A stretch of DNA of 64,000 nt from an uncultured Dehalococcoidia bacterium (lineage in GTDB: Bacteria; Chloroflexota; Dehalococcoidia; Lucifugimonadales; UBA826), in NCBI GenBank assembly GCA_964409595.1, contig CAYPDR010000024.1:63808-127807 (forward strand), in the 5' to 3' direction. Position numbers and translations under genes: made by a program. Under the pieces are notes generated by a model. It ran no database searches, had not been told where the DNA came from, and saw only the letters and a list, made by a program, of their open reading frames with translations. Below, piece by piece: positions 13,338-50,908 of this stretch; the stretch's first letter is position 1, and every line of letters begins with the position of its first letter.

Positions 13338-15028
13338 GCTGTTACCTTCCCTACTGAAGGTTCCTCGATAATATCTCCAACGGTCATACCTGACGGGATC
13401 ATCGGATAAACATTTTCTTCCTGTTCCACAATGAAATCTATCAATACCGGCCCGTCGTGTGATATGGCTTCCTCGACAGCAGATTTAACTTGAGTTTTAT
13501 CGGTGACCCTTATCCCTTTAATGCCATATGCCTCAGCCAAGCGCACAAAATCTGGGTTGCCTGAGAATCCCGTAGAAACGTAGGAACTTTCGAAAAATAT
13601 TTCCTGCCACTGTCTCACCATTCCAAGAAAACCATTATTTAAGATGGCAAATTTCACGGGAAGCTTGTTCTCCACAATAGTCGCAAGTTCGCATAACGTC
13701 ATTTGGAATCCGCCATCTCCTGCAATCGACCACACCAGGCCATTGGGATTGGCTACTTGAGCTCCCATAGCCGCGGGAACTTCATACCCCATAGTCCCCG
13801 AGCCTCCCGAGGTCAATAGGGAGCACGGGTTCTTAAACGTATAATGCTGTGCCGCCCACATTTGATGTTGCCCAACTCCAGTTACTATAGTCGCTCTACC
13901 GTCTGTTATCTCTGATATGTCCCTCACCACTTGACGTGCAAGTAATTTATCAGTATCCGGCAGTCGAAGAGATGGGTGCTCATCTTTCAACGTATCTATT
14001 CGTTTTAACCACTCAGTGTGAGTTGCATGTTCCACTATTTCATTTAAGCTCGCTAGAATATCTCTCACATCCCCTACTATCGGAACATCAGCTACTACGT
14101 TTTTCCCTATCTCTGACGGATCAATATCAACGTGTATTTTCTTGGAATTCGGGGCAAATTTCTTGGGGTTGCCCGTTATTCTGTCGTCAAAACGCATTCC
14201 AAGAGCTATTAACAGGTCAGATTCATCTATAGCTAGGCTTGAATATGCCATACCATGCATACCAGGCCAACCGGTCCAAAGGACATGGTCCTCTGGAAAA
14301 CAGCTTATACCCAACAGAGTAGTTATAACTGGTATTTGAGCTTTTTCGGCCAACTCTTTGAGCTCTTCGTAGGCTCGCGATATTATAACTCCATGGCCAG
14401 CCACAATTACCGGTTTCTTGGAATCTTTAATCAGCTGAGCGGCCTTTTTAATCTGCCCAGCATGTCCAACTGATGTAGGGCTATAGCCCGGCAACTCAAT
14501 TTCTCCAGGGACCATATACTGAACTTCTTCTAGAAAAACATCTCTTGGTATGTCAACTAAGACGGGTCCTGGCCTTCCTGTATTGGCGATGTGGAATGCC
14601 TCTTTAATGACCCTCGCGATGTCACCAGCATCCAGCACTAGAAAGTTGTGTTTTGTTATTGGCAGAGTAATTCCCGTAATGTCTGTCTCCTGAAAGGCGT
14701 CTGAACCGATCGCGGAACTATTTACCTGACCGGTAACGACGACCAAAGGTACAGAATCCATTTGTGCAGAAGCTATACCAGTCACCAAATTAGTCGCCCC
14801 TGGCCCTGACGTAGCAAATGCAACACCTGGTCTCCCAGTCACTCTGGCATAGCCATCGGCTGCATGAGCCGCGCCTTGCTCATGACGGACTAGGATGTGC
14901 CTAAGATCTGGGAATTCTGGAAGGGTTTGATAAAGCGGGAGAATCGCCCCTCCGGGAATCCCAAAGACAACATTACAACCTTCCCGCAAAAGACTTTCGC
15001 AGACTATTTGTGCTCCTCTCATCTTCAT
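13334..15028 (-). CDS. ilvB: Acetolactate synthase large subunit (ThDP-dependent)
   Basis: 564 aa with the ThDP-binding motif GDGGFQM...NNG and AHAS-like FAD-binding middle domain. Confidence 0.92.
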   Translation of the reverse strand: MKMRGAQIVCESLLREGCNVVFGIPGGAILPLYQTLPEFPDLRHILVRHEQGAAHAADGYARVTGRPGVAFATSGPGATNLVTGIASAQMDSVPLVVVTGQVNSSAIGSDAFQETDITGITLPITKHNFLVLDAGDIARVIKEAFHIANTGRPGPVLVDIPRDVFLEEVQYMVPGEIELPGYSPTSVGHAGQIKKAAQLIKDSKKPVIVAGHGVIISRAYEELKELAEKAQIPVITTLLGISCFPEDHVLWTGWPGMHGMAYSSLAIDESDLLIALGMRFDDRITGNPKKFAPNSKKIHVDIDPSEIGKNVVADVPIVGDVRDILASLNEIVEHATHTEWLKRIDTLKDEHPSLRLPDTDKLLARQVVRDISEITDGRATIVTGVGQHQMWAAQHYTFKNPCSLLTSGGSGTMGYEVPAAMGAQVANPNGLVWSIAGDGGFQMTLCELATIVENKLPVKFAILNNGFLGMVRQWQEIFFESSYVSTGFSGNPDFVRLAEAYGIKGIRVTDKTQVKSAVEEAISHDGPVLIDFIVEQEENVYPMIPSGMTVGDIIEEPSVGKVTA

Positions 15029-15079: not shown

Positions 15080-15110
15080 AAAAAAATCCCGTCCACTCAA
15101 TGGGACGGGA
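15080..15110 (-). terminator. Intrinsic terminator of the T-box leader (attenuator)
   Basis: On the minus strand, UCCCGUCC-cauugagu-GGACGGGA forms a perfect 8-bp stem followed by U7. It lies about 50 nt upstream of the ilvB ATG. Confidence 0.8.
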
Positions 15111-15330
15111 TAAATATTCTCTCCCGTGGTACCACCCACGTTGCCAACTTGGCTTGCGCCACGTAGACCACTCAATTAGCTGTAACGTCGCCAACGCCCA
15201 CCCTCTATTTACTTTAAGGGGGGTGCTCCAGGGCGAGTTCGCCGCGGATCCCAGTGCCCGTTTTCCACCTTTCTCACCGAGCTCTCTAGACCGTCCCTTA
15301 CGGCTACTACTCCCTTTCTACACATCTATG
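15080..15330 (-). promoter_or_regulatory. T-box riboswitch leader of the ilvBNC-leuACD operon, putative Leu (CUC) specifier
   Basis: The conserved T-box sequence GUGGGUGGUACCACGGGAG (plus-strand 15121-15139) lies immediately 5' of the terminator. Stem I elements are AGUAGUA, AGAGAG and GGUGAGAAAGG. A specifier-loop-like GAA-CUC-G places CUC at 15235-15237, flanked by GCCG/CGGC and AGGG/CCCU helices. Confidence 0.75.
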
Positions 15331-33795: not shown

Positions 33796-36597
33796 TTATT
33801 GGGCAGTCTCGCCAAGATTCATATATGTAGGGTCTGGAGTAATGAGGTGCAAAGGAAGTGTCTCCCTCGCTCCACTTGGTAAGGTCCACTCCAACCTAAA
33901 CTTCGGGGGCACACCAGCGGAGTTCTGTTGAACGACAATATGTGATTGGTCCTTCCTTAAACTTACTTTTTCCGTAGAAAAATCAGTGATGTGTGGATCT
34001 GAGGATGAGAACATGTGCCCTTCTATAACAATGTTCATTTCACTATTAGAACTCACATGAAATTGGTAATCACCGGAAACAGGTGGAGTTATAAAGCCAG
34101 CCCACACCACAGAATAGGGGCCATCAATCGGAATATCATAGTAGAAAGTGTCTACCGTACCTGTCACCTCCGCTGAAAAAGGTACACCGCCGGACTCGAA
34201 CACTCCTGCGATGCCTACAGGCTTAACCGACCCTTTATACAGAGCCATATCACTAACCGGATGCCAATCATTAAAAGGCCTCCTCCAAAGCAGTTCGGTG
34301 AACTCCGAACTGGATTGCACTGATCCGCTTATTTTTAAATTATGCAAGCCGACTCCCAAACGTATTTTCGCGATGCCATCTTGAGAAGGAAGAATTTTAT
34401 TGCCATCGATATCAAGGCTACCGATTCCTCTAATTTTAAAGTGATATTCATCACTTTCCCTTATATGAAGAGAGGTTTCGAGCAAGAATTTAGCGGGGAA
34501 TCTCTCATCATCCAACATCATATTCCAGGGGACAGATAAGGTAGAGTGACTCCTTTCGAATACTTCGGAATCAGACAACACAATATGGCTACTAACCCCA
34601 TGAGAATGTTTAATAACCTCTCGATCCAGAACAACCTCAAATAAAATTATCTTGGATCCAGATGGTGTCCGTATCTCTTTAAAGTCTCCCTCGGGGTAGT
34701 AAATTTGGAGAATATCAAACACTCCCTTCTCTCTCGGCTCTAAATAGATAACAGCACCATTTTGTATTTCGTCTAAATTTAAAGGTATGTCCCGTGGTGA
34801 ACGTATGGCTTCATAATGTGTCCCATTACCTATGACATATGCCGGCAGGCTGTGTAAAAATTGACGGGAGCTATATAAACTGTATCCACTATTTTTGTAC
34901 GTTTGCATCCGTTTCGCCATGATGGTCTCCGCTGTAGAAAACTCGTTGAAGACTTCCGAGTTATTAGCCTGGACTGAAAAAACACCGTGAATGTTTACAG
35001 CCCCTACAGTAAGGGCAATAGCTACCGCAAAGGTTATTATGAATCTGTGGCCCAGGGTACCAAAAACTGTTCTTCCGCGATTAATAAGTACAACTATTGG
35101 TAAAACGGAAATCACAATCACAGCAGGCATTGCTCCAATCGACCTCAATGACTGAGGCGATTCCCAAGGAACCGTGAAAACGCCCGGCAAAATCATCACT
35201 AAAATCCAAATGGGAAAGATCAATAGAAATCTATTCTTATGGGTAAAAGACATGGCTATCCCGATAATGAACAGTGCTCCCGTGACAACATCCAGCATTG
35301 GTTCGTGAGGAATATTGTGCCTAGGATTTGGGTCACCCGATATATTAAACATCAGCAAATGTTCTATTAGTGAATCTCGTAGTACCATCCAAATTTCGGT
35401 ACCTTCATGAAAAGTAAACAGCCACAACTCCCTAGACCTCTCAAAGAACACTTCGTGGTCTAATACAGCAAATTGGATCACTGGGGCGGAGCTGAGAAAA
35501 GAAGCCCATAAGAAAGTTAGGGATGCCAAAATAATCCTCTTCCAACCCGGAAACTCGATGTACATACCAACTAGAAAAATAGCTCCCACAACGACCGGAA
35601 AGGCCCGAAACGAGGCATAAAACCACATACCAATACCTACAGAAAACCCGGCCCAAAAAAACCAAGCCAAATCCCAATTCTTGACAGCTCGCAGCAATAG
35701 GTAGGCACTCAGCGCTGAGAAAAAAGCGGCCGTTATTCCATGCATTCCAATACGTCCCCAGTTCACGCTCCAGCGCAATACACACGCAAGATATGCAGAT
35801 CCGACACCTAATAAAACCCCTCCAAGTTGATTCCCAAGAAAATATAGAGACGCTATTAACCCCAACGAAAACAATCCTGCCACCAGGCGACCAGCTATCC
35901 AGTTATACCCTATCCCTTCTTGGACAAACGCGATCAGAATGAGAAAAGGAGTAGGAAGGTGAGTTGAAGGCGAGAACACTGATACTTTTCCAGGATTCTT
36001 ATTGAATTCGACTGCGTTGAGAATATTGTCAGCCTCATCGTACCAAAGGCCGTATGGCAGCTCGGTGATGTTGTAGATCCGAATAAGTAGCCCTATAACT
36101 AATATGAAGGCCAGGCTGCCCCAAGCCAACTTTCGAGCAACGGGTCTATTAAACACAGCCAACGATTTCAAAGTTTGTCGATCTCTACAAAAAATAACTC
36201 CCGCTGATGAAGTGACCAGGGAAAGTAAGAACAATAACCATGCAATCCAGTAGGGCGGCTGAAGTCTAAACTGAGCCAATGCTAAAAAACAAATAATTCC
36301 TCCTAATACCAATAGGAAACCACCAATAAGAATCTCTCTCGCTTTAATCCACATGGATACCGTAGATTCCTCTGTCATAGAGAAATATCGCCTGGCTTCC
36401 ACTCCCCCTTCATTCACTTCGATATGAAAGTTCCTATCTTTGAGGTTTGACCAAACGATAGACGTTACCGCCACCAAGGCAGGAGAAATTGCCCAGATGG
36501 CTCTATCAAAGGCCCATAATCCCGATGACAGGAACGCAAGAAAAATCCCGGTTATTAGCAGTACGCAACTTGTTCGGTTGTCGTGCATGTTTTTCAC
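33796..36597 (-). CDS. Large GT-C (family 39/ArnT/PMT-like) membrane glycosyltransferase with C-terminal PA14-like beta domain(s)
   Basis: 933 aa. The N-terminal half has more than 12 TM helices and a first-loop YGLWYDEADN (DE) motif typical of GT-C enzymes. The soluble C-terminal half contains a PA14-like segment (GFITPPVSGDYQFHVSSNSEMNIVIEGHM). Confidence 0.62.
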   Translation of the reverse strand: MKNMHDNRTSCVLLITGIFLAFLSSGLWAFDRAIWAISPALVAVTSIVWSNLKDRNFHIEVNEGGVEARRYFSMTEESTVSMWIKAREILIGGFLLVLGGIICFLALAQFRLQPPYWIAWLLFLLSLVTSSAGVIFCRDRQTLKSLAVFNRPVARKLAWGSLAFILVIGLLIRIYNITELPYGLWYDEADNILNAVEFNKNPGKVSVFSPSTHLPTPFLILIAFVQEGIGYNWIAGRLVAGLFSLGLIASLYFLGNQLGGVLLGVGSAYLACVLRWSVNWGRIGMHGITAAFFSALSAYLLLRAVKNWDLAWFFWAGFSVGIGMWFYASFRAFPVVVGAIFLVGMYIEFPGWKRIILASLTFLWASFLSSAPVIQFAVLDHEVFFERSRELWLFTFHEGTEIWMVLRDSLIEHLLMFNISGDPNPRHNIPHEPMLDVVTGALFIIGIAMSFTHKNRFLLIFPIWILVMILPGVFTVPWESPQSLRSIGAMPAVIVISVLPIVVLINRGRTVFGTLGHRFIITFAVAIALTVGAVNIHGVFSVQANNSEVFNEFSTAETIMAKRMQTYKNSGYSLYSSRQFLHSLPAYVIGNGTHYEAIRSPRDIPLNLDEIQNGAVIYLEPREKGVFDILQIYYPEGDFKEIRTPSGSKIILFEVVLDREVIKHSHGVSSHIVLSDSEVFERSHSTLSVPWNMMLDDERFPAKFLLETSLHIRESDEYHFKIRGIGSLDIDGNKILPSQDGIAKIRLGVGLHNLKISGSVQSSSEFTELLWRRPFNDWHPVSDMALYKGSVKPVGIAGVFESGGVPFSAEVTGTVDTFYYDIPIDGPYSVVWAGFITPPVSGDYQFHVSSNSEMNIVIEGHMFSSSDPHITDFSTEKVSLRKDQSHIVVQQNSAGVPPKFRLEWTLPSGARETLPLHLITPDPTYMNLGETAQ

Positions 36598-37120: not shown

Positions 37121-38413
37121 CTAAATGTCTATATCCATTCCCATATCAATGACTCTTCCCAATTTGTTTTTCTCGAGAATAATTCTATCTTGAAAAGTCT
37201 TCCAAGCATTAAGTTTGTCAACATCTGAAAGCGATTCCATATCATAAATATCTTTCTTGAGTTCATTCAGGGCTGACTCACTCTCAGTTCCTGTCGGCAT
37301 GTCAAAAAACTTTCGTTCAAATGCTGGCACCTTTCCCGGAGGGAAATATCCCATTCCGGGTAGTTCGTAGCCTTCAAGGTTATCGGAGTCTTTACCCAAC
37401 ACTTCTCCAGTCTCCAAATAATGCTCCATAACAGAAGGCAATCCATACTTTTGCACTGGGCAAACTTTTATACACACGCCACATCCTGAATACCTAGTCA
37501 TAACTGGGCGACATCGTCTGGAAATGAGTTTATTTTTCTCAACTCCTCTAAACCAAACTCTTTGAGCTTGGATAGCCTTTCCCGGGCATCTCATAAAACA
37601 AATCTGACACGTCTCACAAAGTTTATAGACCCCGAAGTCGACAGGAGAATCATGCTTCAAAGGCGCGTCAGTTATTAATATTTGCAATCTGGCCCTGGAA
37701 CCGAAATGGGGAGACAAAAGCTGTCCATTGACCCCCAACTGACCCAACCCTGCTTGGACAAACATCGGGATTACTGGTCCAAAATGCCAGACAGGTCCTG
37801 ATATCTGCGATTTATAGCCTAGACTCAAAAGGAAATTAGCTAACTCAATAGAAAGTTTAGCCTGTAATAAATAAGCATCGCCTTGAGCTTCTTCGGCTTC
37901 CAGGCTAGGTATTTCTTGTGTGCGGACATAATCTTGTTCTACAGCAAGGCAAATTGCATTGGGTAAATCGGTTTTAACCTGCCCTCGACGACTACTATAG
38001 ACATATCTCCGGTCGAATCTCGTGAATCCTACTTCCCCGTATCCCAGAGATCTTGCCTTCTCTCGAATTAGTGACGTGACGTCCTCAGTCTGCTTAGGAA
38101 CTTCAGGATTCCTTTCCGCAACCTCACCTATGTTCTTCACCCACGGCAATATTTTAGACTGGTATTCTCTGTATAACCGTGAAGTCTCAGGAGAAACCAC
38201 TTCCCTCTCTTTATCTGCCCAAATTGCGGATGCACTTTCAGATACTGAGAAACTTTCAATGGGAAACTCCCGACTATAGTAAGACACTTCTGCCTCTCTT
38301 ATCGGAATACCGTCGACTTTCAGAAGGTCAGACGCAATAGGTATACTAACTTCCGGGTCCAAAGACGTTCGTCCTTTTCTAAAAATGTTTTTTCCCAGCT
38401 TACGTTTGGCCAT
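37121..38413 (-). CDS. Cytoplasmic reductive-dehalogenase/epoxyqueuosine-reductase (RdhA/QueG)-like 2x[4Fe-4S] protein
   Basis: 430 aa. Fe-S motifs CETCQICFMRCP and C-x10-CGVCIKVCP. Family-typical segments ARSLGYGEVGFT and QAGLGQLGVNGQLLSPHFGSRARL. No twin-arginine signal peptide. Confidence 0.68.
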   Translation of the reverse strand: MAKRKLGKNIFRKGRTSLDPEVSIPIASDLLKVDGIPIREAEVSYYSREFPIESFSVSESASAIWADKEREVVSPETSRLYREYQSKILPWVKNIGEVAERNPEVPKQTEDVTSLIREKARSLGYGEVGFTRFDRRYVYSSRRGQVKTDLPNAICLAVEQDYVRTQEIPSLEAEEAQGDAYLLQAKLSIELANFLLSLGYKSQISGPVWHFGPVIPMFVQAGLGQLGVNGQLLSPHFGSRARLQILITDAPLKHDSPVDFGVYKLCETCQICFMRCPGKAIQAQRVWFRGVEKNKLISRRCRPVMTRYSGCGVCIKVCPVQKYGLPSVMEHYLETGEVLGKDSDNLEGYELPGMGYFPPGKVPAFERKFFDMPTGTESESALNELKKDIYDMESLSDVDKLNAWKTFQDRIILEKNKLGRVIDMGMDIDI

Positions 38414-40700
38414 CTATCGATCCATCATTTAACATTTCTTTAAGAATTATCCTAGCCACATCTTTATCAAGTGGTTCATTGTTGCTTCCACATTTTGGAG
38501 ATTGTACACATCCTGGGCAACCTTCTGTGCAGTCGCATTCAGTTACAACTTCCAACGTAGTCTCAATCAGTTTCTCTGCCTCCTCATACCCCAATTCCGA
38601 GATTCCTACGCCACCTATATGCCCATCATGTATGAAGACCTGTGCTCTTCCGGTATCTGGATGAATTGGTGTGGAAACACCCCCGATGTCACTACGGTCA
38701 CACATTGCAAACAAAGGTAATATTCCGATAGCTGCGTGTTCTATTGCGTGGAGTCCCCCAGCTAAATCGAGATTATGGTATCGAATGTAATCTAGAGCCT
38801 TTTGAGGAACATCCAACCATAGTGAGACAGTTTTGTAATTCAACTTCGGAAGTGAAACATTTTCCTCTGCAAGAACCATTTCAGTAAATCTATGTTTTTT
38901 TCTGAACCCAAGTACTTGTGTGGAAACATTGACTTCACCTATGTGAACGACTGTATTGCCCGCTACACGACATCGATGTTCGTTAATAATTCGAGTCTCA
39001 GTAAAATCCCGTGCCTCTGTGTAATACGATAGATCTACTTCAACGCAGTAAGCTGTTAGTGACTCTATATCTAGATCAGTAACAAGAAACGATACACCTT
39101 GATGAATATACGTCCCACCTGGGTGCATCTGCAAAAACGCACCAATTTCGTCGATTGTTTCAATGATTGCGCCGCTGACCTCATCTACTAGGGTATATAT
39201 TCTCTGTCCAACGGAGCGGATGTTTATTTTCTGAGCAGGATAAGAAACCTCCGGAGAAATATGCCAATAACTCTGTTTGACTCTGAGCTGCCCTTCCTTT
39301 ACGAGTTCATCCACGTTCCATAGCATGTCTGGACCAAAAAAATTTGTGTCAGACATAGAAAGGGGAAGTTCATAAGCAGCGCACAGAAGATGAGGCTTTT
39401 GAATATATGGGTTATTAGGGGATATGCGAGCGTGTTCAAAATCTTTTCTGAAAAAGGCTTCAGGATGTTTCATTAAATACTGGTCCAAGGGATCATCAGA
39501 TGCTACCAAAACGCTCATTGAGTCACTTGCACCTCGGCCACCTCTGCCCGATTGTTGCCAAGTGCTCACGATAGATCCCGGAAATCCGGTGAGAACCGTG
39601 GCGTCAAGTTCCCCTACGTCTACACCTACTTCCATTGCATTGGTAGTTATAAGCCCTAACAAACTCCCGTCAAAAAGCGCTTTCTCAATTAACCTTCGAT
39701 CTTCGGGCAAATAGCTCCCCTTGTAAGGAGCAAGTTTTTCGACCTTAGAAGGGTCGACTCTAGATAGATTATCCCTCACATAGAGGTGAACTACTTCAGC
39801 TTGACGCCTACCTCGAACAAATGTCATGGACCTAATTTGTTTTCTTAGTAACTGAGTTGTCAGTTTTGCCGACTCCCAGTTTGTACTACGGCGACTTCCG
39901 ATGGCAGAATCGATGGTCGAAGGATTCCAAAATATAAAATCTTTGCCCGATGACGGGGATCCGTCAACCTCTATCAGCTCAAATTCCAGTCCTGTAAGGT
40001 TCTTGGCGTGCTCCCTTGGATTCGAGATAGTGGCAGAGCAGAAAATAAATTGTGGCACAGAACCGATACTAGCACAGATTCTACGTAACCTTTTCATCAA
40101 ATTGGAAAAGTTAGACCCGAAAACTCCCCTATATATGTGTGCTTCGTCAACCACTACATATTTCAAGCCTTTAAAGAATGTATGCCACGATCTATGGTTA
40201 GGAAGTATTCCAAGGTGGAGCATATCCGGGTTTGTAATGACTATTCGAGCACGCTTTCTGATTTCTGTCCTATCAGTGGCTGGCGTATCTCCGTCGAATA
40301 TATCATGACGGAGATTGCTGTGAAGTGTTGTAATCCTGTCCAAGCCTCTGCTCTGATCCTGGGAAAGAGCTTTAGTGGGAAACAAATAAAGAGCTTTCTT
40401 GGATTTGTCGGAGCAAAGATCTTCCACTATAGGGACGTTGTAACAGAGGCTCTTACCGCTGGATGTTGACGTCGACACAATTACATTATGCCCGTCCTGG
40501 ATAGCATTGATAGCTTCTGCTTGATGATAAAAAAAAGAGTGTACGCCTATATCACCTAAAGCTTCCATAGTCTCATCACTTAACAGACAATTAAGTTCCC
40601 CAACGATGGAATCCCGACCGGATATCTTCTCCCAATGTACGAGCTGGTCATCATACCAATCGGCAGCTTTAACATCATTTATAAAAGTTTCAACATCCAA
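38400..40700 (-). CDS. DEAD/DEAH-box helicase with C-terminal DUF1998 zinc module (MrfA/YprA-like)
   Basis: 766 aa. Walker A TSTSSGKS, DEAH box (VVVDEAHIY), and SAT and QxxGRxGR (QQSGRGGRG) motifs. The C-terminal four-Cys motif CDCTEGCPGCVQSPKCG is characteristic of DUF1998. Confidence 0.85.
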   Translation of the reverse strand: MDVETFINDVKAADWYDDQLVHWEKISGRDSIVGELNCLLSDETMEALGDIGVHSFFYHQAEAINAIQDGHNVIVSTSTSSGKSLCYNVPIVEDLCSDKSKKALYLFPTKALSQDQSRGLDRITTLHSNLRHDIFDGDTPATDRTEIRKRARIVITNPDMLHLGILPNHRSWHTFFKGLKYVVVDEAHIYRGVFGSNFSNLMKRLRRICASIGSVPQFIFCSATISNPREHAKNLTGLEFELIEVDGSPSSGKDFIFWNPSTIDSAIGSRRSTNWESAKLTTQLLRKQIRSMTFVRGRRQAEVVHLYVRDNLSRVDPSKVEKLAPYKGSYLPEDRRLIEKALFDGSLLGLITTNAMEVGVDVGELDATVLTGFPGSIVSTWQQSGRGGRGASDSMSVLVASDDPLDQYLMKHPEAFFRKDFEHARISPNNPYIQKPHLLCAAYELPLSMSDTNFFGPDMLWNVDELVKEGQLRVKQSYWHISPEVSYPAQKINIRSVGQRIYTLVDEVSGAIIETIDEIGAFLQMHPGGTYIHQGVSFLVTDLDIESLTAYCVEVDLSYYTEARDFTETRIINEHRCRVAGNTVVHIGEVNVSTQVLGFRKKHRFTEMVLAEENVSLPKLNYKTVSLWLDVPQKALDYIRYHNLDLAGGLHAIEHAAIGILPLFAMCDRSDIGGVSTPIHPDTGRAQVFIHDGHIGGVGISELGYEEAEKLIETTLEVVTECDCTEGCPGCVQSPKCGSNNEPLDKDVARIILKEMLNDGSIDGQT

Positions 40701-40712
40701 AAACGTGCTGTC

Positions 40713-41003
40713 CTAAAACCCCGTGAACGTCTCCCTATCTATGTCAATGATCTCTACATCCACCCTTTCTGATTCAATAAATCGAATCGCTTTCTCGATG
40801 GACTTCTCTCCATGTCTGAGACTTGAACTAACCGATGAAATCCCTATTACAGACCGTCCCCACTGCTCATTCTCCGCTACCTCAGATATAGAGACGTTAA
40901 ATTTGTTCGATGTTTTCCCCATAATAGATCTTATTATCCGCCTCTTCTCCTTTAACGAACTAGAGGGCAGGACAAGGGAGATTTTGCAGACACTTACTAT
41001 CAT
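40713..41003 (-). CDS. DUF503 (YlxP-like) small protein
   Basis: 96 aa. The pattern ...LPSSSLKEKRRIIRSI...KFNVSISEV...QW.R..IG...V is typical of DUF503. Confidence 0.65.
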   Translation of the reverse strand: MIVSVCKISLVLPSSSLKEKRRIIRSIMGKTSNKFNVSISEVAENEQWGRSVIGISSVSSSLRHGEKSIEKAIRFIESERVDVEIIDIDRETFTGF

Positions 41004-44717: not shown

Positions 44718-45089
44718 ATGGCTTCGATTTCTCGCGACCAATTTGAGAGTTTAGTGAGACGGGTACTCTCCCAATTACCCGACGAATTCAAAGCACGCCT
44801 TGATAATGTCGATATCGTAGTCGATGACATCGCTTCCAAAGATCAGCTAATCGGAACCGGAATTCAGAGGGAAATAGACTTACTTGGACTCTACGAAGGA
44901 ATCCCGTTAACCGAGCGCTACGGCTACGACATGATCCTTCCAGACAAAATTACTATTTTTCAAAATCCTGTTGAGTCGGCATGTGAGTCACAAGAACAAA
45001 TAGCAGAGGAAATAAAGATCACTATACTGCACGAAATTGCCCATCATTTCGGAATAGACGATAGCACCCTAGGTGAGATCGGCATTTAG
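44718..45089 (+). CDS. Small zinc metallopeptidase-like protein (DUF1025/zincin fold)
   Basis: 123 aa with an HExxH motif (ILHEIAHHFG) near the C-terminus, as in the DUF1025 family. Confidence 0.68.
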   Translation: MASISRDQFESLVRRVLSQLPDEFKARLDNVDIVVDDIASKDQLIGTGIQREIDLLGLYEGIPLTERYGYDMILPDKITIFQNPVESACESQEQIAEEIKITILHEIAHHFGIDDSTLGEIGI

Positions 45090-46721
45090 TCAGGAAGGAC
45101 CGAAGAGATCCTCCATGTTTTTCTTCAAGTCCCCGATTCCCTGCGATAAATTACCCAAAGCTGCGTAGGATTTGGAACTACCGTAATCTCTCGTACGAAC
45201 TACTACTGGCATGGGAATCGCATGCCCAAAAATCAATGCCTGTTGACGCGTTTCCAATCTAGAGAGAACTCCGCGAAGTTTCCTACTCCCTGAAACTCCG
45301 GACAGTACTGAATCCACATCACGACCACTGTCGAGAAGACAAGCGATCTTCGTCCCTATCTGGCTCATAATCTCGTCGTCTATATCGCTGGGCCTCTGGT
45401 CCACAATTAAAAGAGTAACATTGTATTTTCTCATCTCTCTAGCTATGGTGCCGAATATAGTCTGGTCTGCCATAGAAGTACTTAGAAACCTATGAGCTTC
45501 CTCTATGGTGATAACCAAGTTAGGTGGTTCTTTAATTTTGTCGCCTAATGAGGCCTCTTTTTGGCGTTGGTATTCATCATATATTCTGCGGGTCAGTATG
45601 TTGGCAACAAGCATGTAGGCTGTTGGATTATTACCATGCTTACCAAATTCCAAAACTACATGTTGGCCAGCATTCAGCCGATCTATTATCATGCCAGCAG
45701 AATCCTCCACTTTTTCTTTGGACACAAATTCAAATCGCATAAGGCGGTCAAGGCGACGACGCAATGTGGCCAAAGCCGACCCGTTTACGTTCATGGTTCC
45801 GGCGAGGGCATTCATAGAGTCTGCAGAAATATTCACGAATTCGCTAAACCAGTTATTTTGGCCAAATTGGGCGGCCAGGGAGTATGCAATATCAGACGTG
45901 ACCGAACTCATATCCAAAGTTTCTCTTAAAAGTTGGATATCTTCTGGGGCAATATCTGAGTGTCCGAATTCCACTACATGATCAGGGGAAAATCCCCTCC
46001 TTGAGGCGCTCTCCTTGTCCATCGAAAAAACGGAAACCTTAGAGCCAAACAATTGTTTCAGACCTTTCACTGAATGATTTGATTCGCTAGTACCTTCCCA
46101 ACCGTATTCATTGTGCATATCGAATATTAGGTTGCTGGCTTTACCACTCTGAAGTATGCCAATGAGCAGTAATCTTGTTAAAAATGTCTTACCCGTGCCA
46201 CTTTTTCCAAATACCCCGTTGCTCCTTTTAACAAGTTCGTCGATGTTTAAACATAATTTGGCTTCCATATCAAGAGGACTCCCAATCCAAAATCCTCCTT
46301 CAGATTCTGACCCGAAAACATTGTGAATATCATCCTCCGTGGCCGGAGAGACGATGGAAAAATGAGATGGTACAGTTTTCGCAGGCAGTGGCTTTTGTTT
46401 GCCAGTATTTTGGTCGATGCCTATAGTCAACATCGGCTCAACCGTTATCGAGCCATAGGCCGAGGTCCCCAGTAATGTTTCACGTAGAAAGGAATCAGAC
46501 ACATCCGGAAGGTTAAATTGCATAGAAGGGTCGGAGGATCCTAAGCCGATGTCCGTTACCACTCCAAAAAATCGGTTGTTACGTCCCTGTATGACAACAT
46601 TCGAGCCGACTTTAACATCTTCAACTGAAGATCTAGGATCCAACCTAACTTTGACACCCTCAGACAACGAGCCAGCAACTACAACCCCATAGCTTCCTCC
46701 TGAACCACCCAAACCTATCAT
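45090..46721 (-). CDS. HerA/FtsK-superfamily hexameric ATPase (DUF87 type)
   Basis: 543 aa. N-terminal HAS-barrel-like segment (YGVVVAGSLSEGVKVRLD...VVIQGRNNRFFGVVTDIG). Walker A GKSGTGKT, Walker B VITIEEAHRF and LLIVDQRPS. The start overlaps the upstream stop (ATGA). Confidence 0.8.
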   Translation of the reverse strand: MIGLGGSGGSYGVVVAGSLSEGVKVRLDPRSSVEDVKVGSNVVIQGRNNRFFGVVTDIGLGSSDPSMQFNLPDVSDSFLRETLLGTSAYGSITVEPMLTIGIDQNTGKQKPLPAKTVPSHFSIVSPATEDDIHNVFGSESEGGFWIGSPLDMEAKLCLNIDELVKRSNGVFGKSGTGKTFLTRLLLIGILQSGKASNLIFDMHNEYGWEGTSESNHSVKGLKQLFGSKVSVFSMDKESASRRGFSPDHVVEFGHSDIAPEDIQLLRETLDMSSVTSDIAYSLAAQFGQNNWFSEFVNISADSMNALAGTMNVNGSALATLRRRLDRLMRFEFVSKEKVEDSAGMIIDRLNAGQHVVLEFGKHGNNPTAYMLVANILTRRIYDEYQRQKEASLGDKIKEPPNLVITIEEAHRFLSTSMADQTIFGTIAREMRKYNVTLLIVDQRPSDIDDEIMSQIGTKIACLLDSGRDVDSVLSGVSGSRKLRGVLSRLETRQQALIFGHAIPMPVVVRTRDYGSSKSYAALGNLSQGIGDLKKNMEDLFGPS

Positions 46722-47293
46722 CGAATTCTCCTTAGTATGCCTTCCAACCTACGCGTATCGTTTCCTAGCAAGTTGGCTATCTGCCTGGCCGCTTGCAACT
46801 TGAGCTCCACCAGATCAGGAAGAGCCGCACAAGCAAACCTGACAAACGCAGCGACAACATCATCACATTGCGGATAATTCAGCCGCAGTATCGAATTCAT
46901 AAACCCCATAGAATCAACAAAGGAACGAACCTCTTCTTGGTCACAACTATTAACAAAAGAATGAAGTTTCGGGGGTGTAGGTGGCAGATATGTCATAACC
47001 TCAGAAGAATCCTCATATCCAACTGTGATACAGCTGAACTCTGTGCTAAGCAACCGGGACAGCTGAGGGTTTCTCTCGTAGACCTGGCGTTCTGTCTCCA
47101 AGTTCTGACCTCGCGCGACCGATCGTCTGCTCGGATCCAACCCTGACGTAGAAGAATAAATAACTATGCCGTACACAGTTTCGATCTCTCCTGCCTTTAC
47201 CAACGTCCCTAACGCAGGTGAGTCATAGAGCTCATAACATTGAGTTACAAATTCATTTGTATTGCTCTCTACAACTTCCCCTAGGCGCTGCAT
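46718..47293 (-). CDS. Hypothetical protein, possible stand-alone HAS-barrel-like partner of HerA
   Basis: 191 aa. The N-terminal LGEVVESNTNEFVTQCYEL...GTLVKAG..ETVYGIVIY resembles the barrel at the HerA N-terminus, though this rests on pattern only. It is translationally coupled on both sides. Confidence 0.5.
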   Translation of the reverse strand: MQRLGEVVESNTNEFVTQCYELYDSPALGTLVKAGEIETVYGIVIYSSTSGLDPSRRSVARGQNLETERQVYERNPQLSRLLSTEFSCITVGYEDSSEVMTYLPPTPPKLHSFVNSCDQEEVRSFVDSMGFMNSILRLNYPQCDDVVAAFVRFACAALPDLVELKLQAARQIANLLGNDTRRLEGILRRIR

Positions 47294-47303
47294 ATCTTCC
47301 CCG

Positions 47304-48527
47304 TCATAACCATCTCAACTTTTTCGATCTGTCTTTCCCAGACGTGAAAAACCTGATGTTTCTGGCCTCCAAAGCGTCCTCCACCAAATTGATGAAATAG
47401 GTCCTGTCTGCTGTAGATATAACCGCTTGCTCATGGGCCTCTATCAGGCAAGCGGGATATCCAGACCCAAGTTCGCATTGGTCCAAAACCACAGAATGAA
47501 CTAAATCTACCTTACGGGTATCCTCAGCTACCCAGAGAGGTATTTCAACTCTCGCTATTTCTTCGCCTACCTTCATGTAAAAAAAATTCACTTCATTGTC
47601 GCCGTAATAAGTTTTCACTAGTTGGGAACTACTTCCAAATATTGGAGTTCTAAACCCCTCATCCAAAGATTCTTCAAACAAATTTCTATCTTTCAATCCC
47701 AGGGTTGGTGCATCGCAAGGTCTCTTCTCAACCCCTTCGTTTCTGCAATAATTTCGACAATCAGACGTATTAAAAGGGCAAGCTAAAAGACGTATTCCAT
47801 CCATAACCTCGGTACTTCCGGGAAAGCTTATATAGCTGGCCACAATTACTTGCCTATCCTCACTATATCTCCTTATATCGTCTAATGCCTTAACGAATCT
47901 CTCTTCAAGAACGCTACGTATAACAAAGTCTTGGACTCCAGCACGGAGCAAGTCAAGCATAACTAAAGTACCGTCCATGAGCCCTACAATCGGAAGCTGT
48001 GAGTCCGATATTTCTTCGGTTTGGATTTTGCTCACTAACGCTTCGATTTCATGAACTGCCCTTATCGCACCAAGTACAGTCCCTTGGATTGGGACATATC
48101 TATGAGGATTAGCGGGATCGGTTAGTATCGTGTCCGAATTTCCGGAAAACAATTTGGGAAAGCTCTCTATCTCAGCTATAGGGTCCAAACCATATTTTAG
48201 TGTGGCTATGCCTGTATTGATTAAAAAGCAGCTGACAGGTATGTGGCGATTTACATCAATATGAGATCCATCTACTCCTATGGCAACGTAGTTGATAGGT
48301 TTTTCAGGAGATGGTATTGACTCAGACGGTTTAATTGGAAAGTCAGGAGAGGACCATTGAAATAGATTGAGAGAAGCATTTCTCCTTTCTGTAAATTTAT
48401 CCACTTCGAATTTAGCAAGGAGCTCTGAAGCAGCTGTTACCCGACCAATAACAGCCTCATTGGAATCCTTGAGGCCATCAGCCATTTTATCAAGTTGCAA
48501 TGCCGTCTTAGAAAGATCAAGGGCCAA
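47304..48527 (-). CDS. NurA-like nuclease
   Basis: 407 aa with NurA-type motifs AIGVDGSHI, GLMDGTLVM and GYPACLIEAHEQAVIS. The TTG start abuts the upstream TAA; an alternative ATG lies 14 codons downstream. Confidence 0.7.
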   Translation of the reverse strand: MALDLSKTALQLDKMADGLKDSNEAVIGRVTAASELLAKFEVDKFTERRNASLNLFQWSSPDFPIKPSESIPSPEKPINYVAIGVDGSHIDVNRHIPVSCFLINTGIATLKYGLDPIAEIESFPKLFSGNSDTILTDPANPHRYVPIQGTVLGAIRAVHEIEALVSKIQTEEISDSQLPIVGLMDGTLVMLDLLRAGVQDFVIRSVLEERFVKALDDIRRYSEDRQVIVASYISFPGSTEVMDGIRLLACPFNTSDCRNYCRNEGVEKRPCDAPTLGLKDRNLFEESLDEGFRTPIFGSSSQLVKTYYGDNEVNFFYMKVGEEIARVEIPLWVAEDTRKVDLVHSVVLDQCELGSGYPACLIEAHEQAVISTADRTYFINLVEDALEARNIRFFTSGKDRSKKLRWL

Positions 48528-49025
48528 TTAAACAACTCCAAACGTGTCATCTTTAAACACTATCGACAACGTCCCTGAAGAAAGGGACGCACCTGACATC
48601 CTTTTCATAGTTTTTACAACTTGCCTGTAACGTTTTGTTAAAGGAGTGTCTTTGGACGATCTATTGTCTGCTACAGCAAATCCCCAAAGACTGGTTTGTG
48701 CGTTCCCATTGAGAAAGTTGTTGAGTCCGTTGACAAAAGTGGTGACAACAAGAGCAGTAAAATCAATCAAATTTGCATTTTCGTGTCGGTTAGTGAAATA
48801 CATCAATATACAGGTGTGATTATCAAGAGTACTTATCGTCTGGCAAAGTACAGGAGACTCTCCGCCCTCCATAGTATCAGAGGTATCTTCCGACTGAACG
48901 GCGGTCTCACGCAGAGCAGCCTGCATTACTCTTAGAAGATTAGAAAGGTAAGAAACAGATATAGACTCCGATGGCAACGAGACCTTCAATACCACCCTCG
49001 CTTCGTTTCCTTTTTTTTGTAACAT
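48528..49025 (-). CDS. Hypothetical protein (first gene of the HerA/NurA module)
   Basis: 165-aa ORF with no motif I recognise. Its ATG lies 20 nt after the selB stop, and its stop abuts the NurA-like start. Coding is supported by this tight operon context. Confidence 0.5.
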   Translation of the reverse strand: MLQKKGNEARVVLKVSLPSESISVSYLSNLLRVMQAALRETAVQSEDTSDTMEGGESPVLCQTISTLDNHTCILMYFTNRHENANLIDFTALVVTTFVNGLNNFLNGNAQTSLWGFAVADNRSSKDTPLTKRYRQVVKTMKRMSGASLSSGTLSIVFKDDTFGVV

Positions 49026-49045: not shown

Positions 49046-50908
49046 TCAACGAAGAATTCTTACATCCCCAACTCTTCTTGTTATCTGTTGCTGATCCATG
49101 TGGTCCATGAGTGCTAGAGAGTATTTCCTGCTAGTACTGAACATGTCCCTGACATCTGCGATGGATATTTCACCGTTCATGCGGATATAGTCACGGACCT
49201 TATTCAGCATGCTGTCATAAGATTCCGCAGCAAAAATTACTCCGTCTGAAACCCTGACGACCTCCCCAGTCTCTATAAGGTAGTTAACAATCTCTTGATC
49301 CAGATCCTGATTCGTGGGAGGTGCAAATGGATTTAAGTTCAAGGTTCCAACATATCGTTGGGCTTCTATTTCTTGATCCTTCGATAACAAAGACACATGG
49401 TTTTCCAATGCGATCAATGATGCTTGCTCTTTGATCGCGCCCCCATTAACCAACATAACAATAACATCATTGTAAACTGAGTTTTCTAAACCAAGCCTAC
49501 TCCTAAGCTCCTCTCTAGGCACACCTCCGCGGAGAGGAAATTTCGCATGGAATTCTTTCAACAAGGAAAGTAACGATTTTCTCAAATTGTCCCAGTGAGT
49601 ATCTGCAAAAAAATTTGCAATTTCCAATTGAACTCTTGTTGCAACAATCCGATGACTTGAAACAAGTTTACCTAGCTCTGCAATAATCTTTGGTTTCTCA
49701 ATATTTGTAGAGTTGGAGACAAATTCTACATTTACTGGAGTAAGACCAGACGATTCAATCACATTAAGAACAATATCTTCTGAACTTCCTAATTCCAAAG
49801 TTCGGAGCCTTCGTAATGTGGGTTCGTGCCGACGCCGATGTCTCTTGGCCCGAGGCTCAATGACAGACCCGCCACCAAGGGTTGTCATATTTGACCGAAT
49901 TACAAAATAATCTCCCTTAACCAATGGTAATGGGGATTCTGGTTTCATCTGTGCCCATCCAGTCGCCCCTGGTTCTAGAACATCTCCTTCGAGCAATCTA
50001 AGTCTGGTTACGGTTTCACTACTGCCTGTATGAAGCGTCACAAACATATTGTGGCGTAATTCGTTCGGTGCCTCAGGCAACACCTTCAGCTGAACATCAA
50101 AAGCCTCGCTTGGTCTCAACCATCCCGGTGAAGTAAGTACTTCGCCTCTCATAATTTCATTTTGGTCTATCCCGGATATATTCGCTGCGACCCGAGTGCC
50201 TGGTTCTGCAGCGGGTTCTTTTCTCTTGTGAGTCTGCAAACCTCTGATCCTAGCCCCCTTGCCCGAAGGTGCGAGAACTACGTCTTGCCCCACACTTAAG
50301 GATCCGTCTATCAACGTGCCCGTTACTACGGTTCCAAATCCGGTAACAGTGAATACTCTGTCTATAGGCAATCTGGGTCGACCTACATCCCGCCTAACTT
50401 GGGAGTCGGTCAACATCTGGTCCATCGTTGCTACTAGCTCCTCAATACCTTCACCAGTCTCGGCCGACACAGGACAAATCGGGGAGTTCTCCAGATGGGT
50501 TCCCTCGATTAGTTCTTCTACGTCTTTAGCAACTAGTTGTAACCATTCTTCGTCTACCAGATCTTTCTTCGTCAAAGCAATGATCCCTTTTCCAACTCCT
50601 AAAAGGTCGAGAATAGCCAGATGTTCCCTAGTTTGAGGCATCACTGATTCATCTGCTGCCACCACCAACATGGCTATGTCAATTCCTCCGACACCAGCAA
50701 GCATATTATTGACGAAGCGTTCATGACCAGGCACATCGACAATGGAAACTTCTCCCCCCACTGGCAAAGTAAACCACGCAAACCCCAAATCAATCGTCAT
50801 ACCGCGATTTTTTTCTTCCTGGAGACGATCAGGATCAATACCAGTGAGTGCTCTAACCAAAGTAGATTTCCCGTGATCTACATGACCAGCAGTCCCAACA
50901 ACAAACAA
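49046..50908 (-). CDS. selB: Selenocysteine-specific translation elongation factor SelB
   Basis: 620 aa. EF-Tu-like G domain ([25 protein letters not shown]). The long C-terminal winged-helix extension ending ...[27 protein letters not shown] is typical of bacterial SelB. TTG start. Confidence 0.9.

What the first reader, a model, noticed from the sequence alone, without database searches (positions are those of the whole stretch)
45090..49025. Tightly coupled four-gene HerA/NurA module with two uncharacterised small partners
Four co-directional minus-strand ORFs are packed with essentially no intergenic space. The junctions are a TAA|TTG abutment at 48528/48527, a 10-nt gap at 47294-47303, and an ATGA overlap at 46718-46721.

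The four products are:
- A 165-aa protein with no motif I recognise.
- A 407-aa NurA-like nuclease (GVDGSHI, LMDGTL, GYPACLIEAHEQAV).
- A 191-aa protein with a HAS-barrel-like N-terminus.
- A 543-aa HerA/FtsK-type ATPase (Walker A GKSGTGKT, Walker B VITIEEAH, LLIVDQRPS).

In established knowledge, HerA-NurA acts in archaeal DNA end resection together with Mre11-Rad50, which are absent here. HerA-family ATPases are also reused as scaffolds of anti-phage systems with other effectors. I do not know of a described HerA-NurA system carrying these two extra subunits. The module could therefore be an undescribed DNA-processing or defence complex.
Basis: partly seen in the sequence, partly recalled or inferred. 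Interest (0 to 1): 0.8.

Follow-up and report, generated by a model that had tools for sequence, protein, structure and literature searches.

The report
HerA–NurA operon with truncated HerA partner
A marine Chloroflexota (SAR202-like) chromosome carries the known NurA nuclease / HerA DNA-pump pair in an undescribed three-part form, in which herA is almost always preceded by a small gene for a motor-less copy of HerA's own N-terminal barrel, while the fourth small gene is only a lineage-restricted add-on.

Summary
The four minus-strand ORFs, their three junctions and all quoted motifs are as described, and selB joins the same tight string 20 nt upstream.

- **HerA and NurA:** both pass Pfam cut-offs.
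- **191-aa protein:** it is a stand-alone HAS barrel with a helical tail. The AF2 model has pLDDT 92.6, the top 50 PDB fold matches are all HerA chains, and 19 of 29 relatives hit PF09378. It aligns collinearly with HerA residues 9-137, so it looks like a truncated HerA paralogue without the ATPase.
- **Pairing with herA:** the pairing is near-obligate. With the small protein as bait, 70 of 82 loci have herA within 60 nt, commonly with a 4-nt overlap. With HerA as bait, 67 of 67 loci carry the small gene upstream.
- **Size and spread:** 1,047 clusters at 50% identity, found across Dehalococcoidia and in Armatimonadota. Every named member is 'hypothetical protein'.
- **NurA:** it is nearby in only about 60% of loci.
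- **165-aa protein:** it is a real gene but lineage-restricted, present in 14 of 30 selB-nurA loci. Its fold is unknown and its link to the system is unproven.
- **Defence reading:** nothing supports it. PADLOC finds no partner, there are no phage or plasmid copies, and the flanks are syntenic housekeeping genes.

Verdict: an undescribed three-component variant of bacterial NurA-HerA. How the small protein acts is inferred, not shown.

The parts
45090..46721 (-). herA: 543-aa HerA/FtsK-type hexameric translocase ATPase with its own N-terminal HAS barrel, Walker A GKSGTGKT and Walker B VITIEEAH.
   Evidence: PF01935 E=1.3e-27 and PF09378 E=9.2e-8 over residues 12-100. Full-length collinear match to Sulfolobus HerA 4d2i, E=7e-18. 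Far below the cut-offs of every NCBIfam HerA equivalog, repair or antiphage.
46718..47293 (-). Gene for a 191-aa stand-alone HAS-barrel protein: beta-barrel at about residues 3-116, then a five-helix tail at 119-190, with no ATPase domain. It is probably an ancient truncated paralogue of the HerA N-terminus. Its stop overlaps the herA start (ATGA).
   Evidence: - AF2 model pLDDT 92.6, pTM 0.87.
- Foldseek against PDB: the top 50 hits are all HerA chains, best E=1.3e-6.
- 19 of 29 relatives hit PF09378, best E=5e-7.
- hhalign against HerA residues 9-137 is collinear, E=0.015-0.016.
- herA follows within 60 nt in 70 of 82 loci.
- The gene is present upstream of herA in 67 of 67 HerA-baited loci.
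47304..48527 (-). nurA: 407-aa NurA-domain nuclease with invariant D86, E160, D185 and E363/H365/E366. It has a helical N-terminal extension and a clade-specific four-cysteine insertion.
   Evidence: PF09376 E=1.2e-17. Invariant catalytic-motif columns in 20 orthologues. No sequence-level hit to solved NurA structures, even with a profile.
48528..49025 (-). Gene for a 165-aa protein of unknown fold. It is a real conserved gene but lineage-restricted, and it lies between selB and nurA.
   Evidence: - 10 clusters at 46% identity or more.
- ORFs of 163-176 aa with shared motifs (VS.LS.LLR..QAA.RE, LWG, R..Q) in 14 of 30 selB-nurA loci.
- No Pfam, NCBIfam, PADLOC or PDB sequence match.
- AF2 pLDDT 59.9 and no significant fold match.
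49046..50908 (-). selB, the selenocysteine-specific elongation factor. It is the first gene of the co-directional string, ending 20 nt before the 165-aa ORF.
   Evidence: GTP_EFTU plus the SelB winged-helix 2 and 3 and beta-barrel domains. selB sits directly upstream of nurA in 30 loci, with gaps of 5-50 nt or 4-nt overlaps.
46718..46721 (-). ATGA stop/start overlap between the HAS-protein gene and herA, implying translational coupling.
   Evidence: Read directly. The same 4-nt overlap is the commonest junction among the 82 loci.
47715..47780 (-). Four-cysteine insertion in NurA (C250-x8-C-x3-C-x9-C271), a putative metal-binding site.
   Evidence: Alignment block: conserved in most of 20 orthologues and absent in L001.

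Best explanation
This is a chromosomal, vertically inherited NurA-HerA nuclease/translocase operon of a SAR202-like Dehalococcoidia bacterium. It occurs in a clade-specific three-component form.

HerA is the ATP-driven hexameric DNA pump and NurA is the nuclease that works on the DNA HerA feeds it. In the characterised Deinococcus and archaeal complexes, a NurA dimer docks on the ring of six HAS barrels at one face of HerA.

The new element is the 191-aa protein. It is a motor-less paralogue of the HerA N-terminus, made of a HAS barrel, the linker and a new helical tail. It is made in step with HerA from an overlapping stop/start. It most likely assembles with the HerA hexamer at or on its HAS-barrel face. 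There it would act as an extra crown or adaptor ring that modifies or gates the docking of NurA or other partners and the exit of DNA.

The 165-aa protein is an optional accessory found in some lineages, and its role is unknown.

**Shown:** the identities and folds of the proteins, the near-obligate HAS-herA pairing, the phyletic spread, and the housekeeping context.

**Inferred:** physical assembly with HerA, the site of binding, and the role in DNA end processing.
For: **Family assignments**
- HerA and NurA pass Pfam, and the NurA catalytic residues are invariant.

**Nature of the 191-aa protein**
- Confident model whose top 50 PDB matches are all HerA chains, across repair and defence HerAs.
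- 19 of 29 relatives hit PF09378.
- Weak but collinear sequence similarity to the N-terminus of the adjacent HerA. It runs past the barrel into the linker motif P..H(S/F).V....(E/D)(E/D)(V/I). The gene also lies immediately 5' of herA. Both points fit an old partial tandem duplication.

**Partnership with HerA**
- HAS bait: 82 loci hold both genes, 70 with a gap of 60 nt or less, and a 4-nt overlap is the commonest junction.
- HerA bait: 67 of 67 loci with 650 nt or more upstream carry the HAS gene, 64 of them within 150 nt.
- The pairing persists where nurA is not nearby, so HerA rather than NurA is the constant partner.
- The trio is kept down to 32-36% identity and in Armatimonadota.

**Established knowledge (PMC9960219)**
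- HAS barrels form the ring that mediates NurA docking on HerA.

**Housekeeping context**
- The flanks hold selB, thiolase, an enolase-superfamily gene and Zincin_1. FtsK, RNase J, ThrRS and cox1 lie elsewhere in the window.
- GC is flat across the window.
- Synteny is conserved across deep divergence.
Against: - No interaction was computed or measured. A complex prediction could not be run.
- The window's own 191-aa sequence does not reach Pfam HAS-barrel significance, and its similarity to HerA is marginal (E about 0.015).
- I found two clear loci where a homologue has no herA nearby (L022; L091), so it can exist apart from HerA.
- In a minority of Dehalococcoidales loci, unrelated genes sit between the HAS gene and herA.
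- HerA here has a complete HAS barrel of its own, so the small protein does not fill an obvious gap.
- The in vivo role of bacterial NurA-HerA is itself unsettled: PMC9960219 cites genetic studies in Deinococcus and Thermus, and by my recollection nurA/herA deletion in Thermus does not give a simple repair defect.
Confidence: 0.6

Rival explanations
1. The 191-aa protein is a negative regulator or decoy, not a structural subunit. As a free HAS barrel it would mimic the HerA crown. It would either sequester the NurA dimer or cap the HerA pore, keeping the nuclease/translocase silent until DNA damage or another signal releases it.
For: - It has the same fold as the surface on which NurA docks (PMC9960219).
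- Both the barrel and the HerA N-terminus are acidic (pI 4.7 and 4.5), so the small protein could present a similar docking surface.
- HerA already has a full barrel, so a second copy is not needed structurally.
- Tight co-expression is typical of toxin-like enzyme and inhibitor pairs.
Against: - The pairing is with herA, not nurA. It persists in 29 of 82 loci with no nurA within 6 kb, which a NurA decoy would not predict.
- There is no data on binding.
- The helical tail (residues 119-190) is well conserved, for example the invariant F131 and L183, which suggests a specific interface of its own.
Confidence: 0.2
2. The module is an anti-phage or anti-plasmid defence system. A HerA scaffold would be coupled to a NurA nuclease effector, with the two small proteins acting as sensor or regulator. 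This would be analogous to Sir2-HerA and DUF4297-HerA.
For: - HerA scores against PADLOC HerA models (best E=2.7e-32) and against NCBIfam antiphage HerA nearly as well as against repair HerA.
- The top sequence hit in PDB is a SIR2-HerA chain, although only over residues 371-506.
- In Dehalococcoidales the nurA-HAS interval is a variable spot that sometimes holds a methylase-Mrr fusion, DUF2130 or a SLOG/LOG protein.
Against: - No PADLOC hit for the NurA, HAS or 165-aa families.
- No homologue of the HAS protein in 72,556 plasmids or 50,697 phages, and no viral fold match.
- The locus is syntenic with selB and metabolic genes across 32-68% identity.
- GC is flat, and all neighbours in the window are housekeeping genes.
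- Most cargo at the variable spot is metabolic: flavodoxin, PNPOx and an MFS transporter.
Confidence: 0.12
3. The 165-aa protein is not part of the HerA/NurA system at all. It would be a selB-associated or independent small gene that merely sits in the selB-nurA intergenic slot of some lineages.
For: - It is found only between selB and nurA, in 14 of 30 such loci. The other 16 have gaps of 5-210 nt with no such ORF.
- It is absent from loci where nurA follows cutA instead of selB and from the Armatimonadota trio.
- No fold or family links it to DNA metabolism.
Against: - Its stop abuts the nurA start codon.
- It keeps conserved motifs at 21-49% identity, so it is under selection within this operon context.
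Confidence: 0.4

Closest known systems
Bacterial NurA-HerA complex of Deinococcus radiodurans (cryo-EM 7f6d, 7wrw, 7wrx; PMC9960219)
   Same: - A bacterial system with no Mre11-Rad50 genes beside it.
- A HerA with HAS barrel, RecA-like core and helical insert, plus a NurA-domain nuclease.
- HerA of the window and DrHerA share the fold, and the small protein matches DrHerA's barrel.
- The expected mechanism is the same: NurA docks on the HAS face of a HerA hexamer.
   Different: - That system is described as two components (6 HerA: 2 NurA). Here a third gene, a HAS-barrel-only HerA paralogue, sits between nurA and herA and is almost always paired with herA.
- NurA here is too divergent to hit any solved NurA by sequence, and it carries a four-cysteine insertion.
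- nurA is often unlinked from herA.
Archaeal HerA-NurA-Mre11-Rad50 end-resection operon (Sulfolobus HerA 4d2i; Thermococcus HerA-NurA 9x1l and 9x1m)
   Same: The same two enzyme families. Full-length collinear similarity of the window HerA to SsoHerA (E=7e-18). The best fold matches of the small protein are SsoHerA and TkoHerA barrels.
   Different: - The flanking genes are selB and Zincin_1, and none of the other 14 window ORFs scanned is Mre11 or Rad50.
- It scores far below the NCBIfam equivalog cut-offs (84.8 bits against 800).
- It has an extra HAS-only subunit gene.
HerA-scaffolded anti-phage systems (Sir2-HerA/Nezha, DUF4297-HerA, TdpAB)
   Same: A HerA hexamer whose HAS face recruits an effector. 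The HerA C-terminal half scores against these proteins, and the small protein's barrel superposes on theirs.
   Different: No Sir2, DUF4297 or TdpB-type partner is present. There are no PADLOC hits for the partners. The context is a conserved housekeeping locus rather than a mobile island.
N-terminal beta-barrel 'crown' of F1/V1-type ATPase subunits (the other half of the HAS = HerA-ATP Synthase barrel family)
   Same: From established knowledge, small barrels of this class oligomerise into a ring that holds a hexameric P-loop motor together. This is the basis for expecting the stand-alone barrel to join a ring.
   Different: In those enzymes the barrel is always fused to the ATPase. A separately encoded barrel-only protein paired with its motor is, as far as I could find, not described. 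This comparison rests on memory and was not tested here.

Membership tests
HerA (HerA/FtsK superfamily; PF01935 + PF09378) | Central DUF87/HerA ATPase domain above the Pfam gathering score | tested here: met
   PF01935 E=1.3e-27, 97.8 bits against a cut-off of 23.2.
HerA (HerA/FtsK superfamily; PF01935 + PF09378) | N-terminal HAS barrel | tested here: met
   PF09378 E=9.2e-8, 32.5 bits against 25.2, residues 12-100.
HerA (HerA/FtsK superfamily; PF01935 + PF09378) | Intact Walker A and Walker B motifs | tested here: met
   GKSGTGKT and LVITIEEAH read in the translation. Both are invariant in 9 diverse orthologues.
HerA (HerA/FtsK superfamily; PF01935 + PF09378) | Hexameric ring that translocates DNA | not testable with these tools
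   Needs biochemistry or a multimer prediction.
Curated HerA equivalogs (NCBIfam repair HerA NF040937/NF040819; antiphage HerA NF042943/NF042944) | Score above the equivalog cut-off (800-970 bits) | tested here: not met
   Best scores are 84.8 and 79.5 bits. This HerA belongs to neither curated subgroup.
NurA nuclease (PF09376) | NurA domain above the Pfam gathering score | tested here: met
   E=1.2e-17, 64.7 bits against 21, residues 83-370 covering model positions 4-254 of 254.
NurA nuclease (PF09376) | Conserved acidic and histidine catalytic residues | tested here: met
   D86, E160, D185 and E363/H365/E366 are invariant in 20 orthologues. The mapping onto catalytic residues of solved NurAs is by motif position, not by structural superposition.
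NurA nuclease (PF09376) | Detectable sequence relationship to structurally solved NurAs (Deinococcus, Thermotoga, Sulfolobus, Pyrococcus) | tested here: inconclusive
   No hit with the single sequence or with a 20-sequence profile. The clade is too divergent for HMMER against PDB, and no NurA structure model was made.
Archaeal-type herA-mre11-rad50-nurA operon | mre11 and rad50 adjacent to herA and nurA | tested here: not met
   The flanking genes are selB and Zincin_1. None of the 16 window ORFs scanned with Pfam is Mre11 or Rad50; 14 of these lie outside the cluster. Not every ORF of the window was scanned.
Two-component bacterial NurA-HerA (Deinococcus type) | nurA and herA as a two-gene unit forming a 2:6 complex with no further subunit | tested here: not met
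   A conserved third gene lies between them and is paired with herA in 67 of 67 and 70 of 82 loci. Stoichiometry is not testable here.
HAS-barrel domain (PF09378), for the 191-aa protein | Sequence match to the Pfam model | tested here: inconclusive
   The window protein gives no hit at E<=1, but 19 of 29 family members do, best E=5.2e-7. Precomputed PF09378 hits also appear on several clusters.
HAS-barrel domain (PF09378), for the 191-aa protein | HAS-barrel fold | tested here: met
   AF2 pLDDT 92.6. The top 50 Foldseek PDB hits are all HerA chains, with probability 1.00 and E from 1.3e-6 to 1.2e-3.
Known HerA-based defence systems (Sir2-HerA, DUF4297-HerA, others in PADLOC) | A recognised effector or partner protein next to HerA | tested here: not met
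   PADLOC gives no hit for NurA, the HAS protein or the 165-aa protein, alone or across their families.

The most novel reading that the evidence does not exclude
The stand-alone HAS-barrel protein is a true stoichiometric subunit that builds a second, separately encoded barrel ring on the HerA hexamer, giving a hetero-dodecameric 'double-crown' motor. This would be the first case in the HerA/FtsK superfamily where the effector-docking platform is supplied by a distinct gene. Such a platform could be exchanged or regulated independently of the motor. That would explain why nurA can be unlinked while the pair is almost never split. It would define a new architectural class of HerA machines spanning Dehalococcoidia and Armatimonadota.
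Probability: 0.35. Interest if true: 0.7.

Novelty: new variant of a known kind. Interest (0 to 1): 0.55.

Why it matters
HerA hexamers are reused across DNA repair and several recently solved anti-phage systems. In all of them the HAS-barrel face is where the effector docks. A large, unannotated family of motor-less HerA N-terminal paralogues is almost always co-encoded with its HerA: 1,047 clusters at 50% identity, 187 reference genomes, and at least two phyla. This suggests a way of building or regulating that docking face that no structural or biochemical study has yet considered.

It also matters for ecology. SAR202 and other Dehalococcoidia are abundant, mostly uncultured ocean and subsurface bacteria whose DNA-repair equipment is poorly known. 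This operon appears to be part of their core genome.

On the practical side, the family deserves a name and a profile model. At present every named member is labelled 'hypothetical protein'.

Tried and rejected
1. **Sequence searches of the 191-aa profile and the 165-aa profile against PDB.** Only chance-level hits.
2. **Pfam, NCBIfam and PADLOC on the two small proteins.** Nothing usable.
3. **Structure of the 165-aa protein.** The permitted 10-sequence alignment gave pLDDT 59.9, and its Foldseek matches are all above E=0.05 with poor TM-scores. I draw no conclusion from them.
4. **Natural fusions as a Rosetta-stone clue.** The longer family members are N-terminal extensions or barrel insertions. 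One (P0179) is a NurA C-terminus run into the HAS gene, most likely through a frameshift. It is not evidence of fusion.
5. **NurA profile against PDB.** No NurA hit.
6. **Viral fold library for the HAS model.** Nothing below E=0.04.
7. **Phage and plasmid collections.** No match.
8. **Literature.** No paper in the held library links NurA-HerA to Chloroflexota or mentions a stand-alone HAS-barrel partner. The founding comparative-genomics paper (Iyer et al. 2004, NAR 32:5260) is not held, so I cannot exclude a passing mention there.
9. **Promoter and terminator scan.** Counts do not exceed those of shuffled sequence, so it is uninformative.
10. **Inter-protein covariation (HAS x HerA).** Considered and not run. 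About 150 related pairs is too few for about 700 columns, and no null would control for shared phylogeny.
11. **First genome scan with the full 29-sequence alignment.** It failed because no stretch was conserved enough. It was repeated with a 10-sequence subset.

Full report
**1. The observation.** The ORF table and the sequence itself confirm four co-directional minus-strand ORFs at exactly the stated coordinates: 165 aa at 48528-49025, 407 aa at 47304-48527, 191 aa at 46718-47293, and 543 aa at 45090-46721. The three junctions are as described: TAA directly followed by TTG, a 10-nt spacer, and an ATGA overlap. The unusual TTG start of the 407-aa ORF is real, because its first residues (M-[A/S]-L-D-L) are invariant in 20 orthologues, some of which start with ATG. 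One addition: the gene immediately upstream is selB (49046-50908, minus strand). It has the full set of SelB domains and ends only 20 nt before the 165-aa ORF. The tight string therefore has five genes. A convergent Zincin_1 gene ends exactly where the herA stop begins.

**2. HerA and NurA.** The 543-aa protein has the HerA central domain (PF01935, E=1.3e-27) and its own HAS barrel (PF09378, E=9.2e-8, residues 12-100). The 407-aa protein has a full-length NurA domain (PF09376, E=1.2e-17). All three hits are above Pfam's cut-offs. HerA aligns over its whole length with Sulfolobus HerA (4d2i, E=7e-18). It falls an order of magnitude below the cut-offs of every curated NCBIfam HerA equivalog, whether repair-type or antiphage-type, so it is a separate HerA clade. 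The NurA clade is divergent. Neither the single sequence nor a 20-sequence profile reaches any solved NurA. Even so, the acidic and histidine motif residues (D86, E160, D185, E363/H365/E366) are invariant, so the nuclease looks active. Most members also carry a four-cysteine insertion (C-x8-C-x3-C-x9-10-C).

**3. The 191-aa protein.**
- *Sequence searches.* Searches with the window protein alone find nothing in Pfam, NCBIfam or PADLOC.
- *Homologues.* It has 77 homologous clusters in the first search. A profile of 29 of them finds 1,047 clusters at 50% identity (718 at E<=1e-10). The best 150 are mostly proteins of about 190-215 aa.
- *Structure.* An AlphaFold2 model built on that alignment is confident (pLDDT 92.6, pTM 0.87). 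It shows a beta-barrel at roughly residues 3-116 followed by five helices.
- *Fold matches.* Against the PDB, the top 50 matches are all HerA chains, from archaeal repair HerA, Deinococcus HerA, Sir2-HerA, DUF4297-HerA and TdpA. They align through the N-terminal HAS barrel.
- *Family-level sequence support.* 19 of 29 family members hit PF09378, best E=5e-7.
- *Relation to the adjacent HerA.* Profile comparison with the N-terminus of the neighbouring HerA gives a weak but collinear alignment (E about 0.015). It runs from the start of the barrel past its end into the linker, through a shared P..H(S/F).V....(E/D)(E/D)(V/I) motif.
- *Reading.* The protein is a truncated HerA paralogue: barrel plus linker plus a new helical tail, with no ATPase. 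Its gene lies directly 5' of herA, as an old partial tandem duplication would leave it. That origin is an inference.

**4. Neighbourhood conservation.**
- *HAS protein as bait.* A scan of one genome per species found 187 genomes. The best 80 are all Chloroflexota, class Dehalococcoidia, including SAR202 and Dehalococcoidales.
- *Junctions.* Among 82 loci holding both genes, herA follows within 60 nt in 70. A 4-nt stop/start overlap is the commonest junction.
- *HerA as bait.* That set is biased by its bait, so I also baited with HerA in metagenome contigs. Of 67 loci with at least 650 nt upstream of herA, all 67 carry the HAS gene on the same strand, 64 of them within 150 nt.
- *Depth of conservation.* The trio nurA-HAS-herA persists down to 32-36% identity. 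It also occurs in an Armatimonadota MAG and in a similarly organised contig.
- *NurA linkage is weaker.* It is within 6 kb in 53 of 82 loci, directly adjacent in 23, and present in 29 of 48 HerA-baited loci.
- *Dehalococcoidales.* Unrelated cargo of 1-4 kb separates nurA from the HAS gene.
- *Exceptions.* I found two clear loci where a HAS homologue has no herA nearby (L022; L091).
- *Conclusion.* The constant unit is HAS + herA, with nurA as a frequent third member.

**5. The 165-aa protein.** It is a real gene. ORFs of 163-176 aa with shared motifs occupy the selB-nurA interval in 14 of 30 loci that have both genes, at 21-49% identity to the window protein. The other 16 loci have only 5-210 nt there. 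It has no sequence-family or PDB sequence match. Its model is poor (pLDDT 59.9) and the fold search is not significant. It occurs only where selB precedes nurA, so the data cannot say whether it belongs with NurA-HerA, with SelB, or with neither.

**6. Repair or defence?**
- PADLOC matches only generic HerA models and nothing for the NurA, HAS or 165-aa families.
- The HAS protein has no relative in 72,556 plasmids or 50,697 phage records, and no viral fold match.
- The window is ordinary core chromosome: FtsK, RNase J, ThrRS, cytochrome oxidase, LeuA and thiolases. GC content is flat.
- The locus keeps the same neighbours, especially selB, across very deep divergence.
- The variable cargo in Dehalococcoidales is mostly metabolic, with an occasional methylase-Mrr fusion, DUF2130 or SLOG protein.
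- This pattern fits a vertically inherited housekeeping function, not a mobile defence island. I keep the defence reading at about 0.12.

**7. Mechanism.**
- *Established background.* In the solved Deinococcus complex and in the archaeal complexes, HerA is a stable hexamer. Its six HAS barrels form the ring on which a NurA dimer docks, and DNA is threaded through the channel to the nuclease (PMC9960219).
- *Shown here.* A barrel-only paralogue is made together with HerA, from overlapping stop and start codons, in essentially every genome with this HerA clade.
- *Inferred.* It assembles with the HerA hexamer at the HAS-barrel face, as an added ring or adaptor. There it would shape or gate the docking of NurA or another partner and the passage of DNA.
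- *Main rival.* It could be a decoy or cap that keeps the enzyme silent. Against a NurA decoy, the pairing is with herA and survives where nurA is not nearby.
- *Not settled.* I could not run a complex prediction, so none of this is tested.

**8. Comparison with what is known.** The closest described system is the two-component bacterial NurA-HerA of Deinococcus. The absence of Mre11-Rad50 is therefore normal for a bacterium and is not a sign of novelty. What is new is the third, near-obligate component. In the held literature I found no paper linking NurA-HerA to Chloroflexota and no mention of a separately encoded HAS-barrel partner. The 2004 comparative-genomics paper on the superfamily is not held, so a passing mention there cannot be excluded. 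Every named database member is called 'hypothetical protein'.

**9. Verdict.** This is an undescribed three-component variant of a known system. It is widespread in Dehalococcoidia and present in Armatimonadota. The fourth gene is a lineage-restricted accessory, and nothing supports a defence role. Interest is moderate (0.55). A HerA specialist would want to see the complex, but the enzymes and their likely job are familiar.

Noticed in passing
window 49046-50908 (-); L004, L006, L088 and 27 other loci: selB is co-directional with nurA and almost touches it in 30 loci, with gaps of 5-50 nt or 4-nt overlaps. This holds down to 32% identity of the HAS protein. A translation factor for selenocysteine in one apparent operon with a nuclease/translocase is an odd, unexplained linkage.
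   Followed up: partly
window about 47715-47780 (-), NurA residues 250-271: A four-cysteine insertion (C-x8-C-x3-C-x9-10-C) in the NurA of this clade. It is conserved in most of 20 orthologues and lost in L001. It may be a zinc or iron-sulfur site; I do not recall one in characterised NurAs, and this was not checked here.
   Followed up: partly
window 44718-45089 (+) against 45090 (-): A Zincin_1 (PF06262) gene converges on herA with a 0-nt gap between the two stop codons. The same neighbour overlaps herA in L001 and L002.
   Followed up: no
window 37121-41003 (-): A reductive-dehalogenase-like 430-aa ORF, then an MrfA-type DEAD helicase with the MZB zinc domain (766 aa, overlapping it by 14 nt), then a DUF503 gene. 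This is another DNA-repair-type helicase about 4 kb from the HerA locus.
   Followed up: partly
window 15098-15329 (-): A T-box leader just above Rfam's gathering score (94.7 bits against 93). It lies upstream of a TPP-enzyme (acetolactate-synthase-like) gene at 13334-15028.
   Followed up: no
window 33796-36597 (-): A 933-aa ORF with no Pfam domain at E<=1e-6. Only its C-terminal 100 residues resemble a PA14-domain protein (6qdi, E=2e-10).
   Followed up: no
L043 3705-5982; L071, L057, L029, L086 and others: In Dehalococcoidales the nurA-HAS interval, and sometimes the HAS-herA interval, is a variable spot. Its cargo includes a DNA methylase-Mrr fusion, DUF2130, LOG/SLOG, flavodoxin, PNPOx, an MFS transporter, a 23S-rRNA-IVP protein, a GNAT-like ORF (read by eye, not scanned) and an NfeD-like ORF (also by eye).
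   Followed up: partly
L022 5905-6573; L091 7001-7696: Two homologues of the HAS protein sit with no herA within 6-7 kb. One lies between trpC and a HEAT-repeat gene in a 4.9-Mb contig.
   Followed up: no
L089 4001-5464; L090 9219-10703: In the Armatimonadota-type loci, herA is followed by a gene of about 490 aa with weak LptD_N/DUF3769 similarity. Its start overlaps herA in L090 and lies 2 nt after it in L089. It may be a further lineage-specific partner or just a neighbour.
   Followed up: partly
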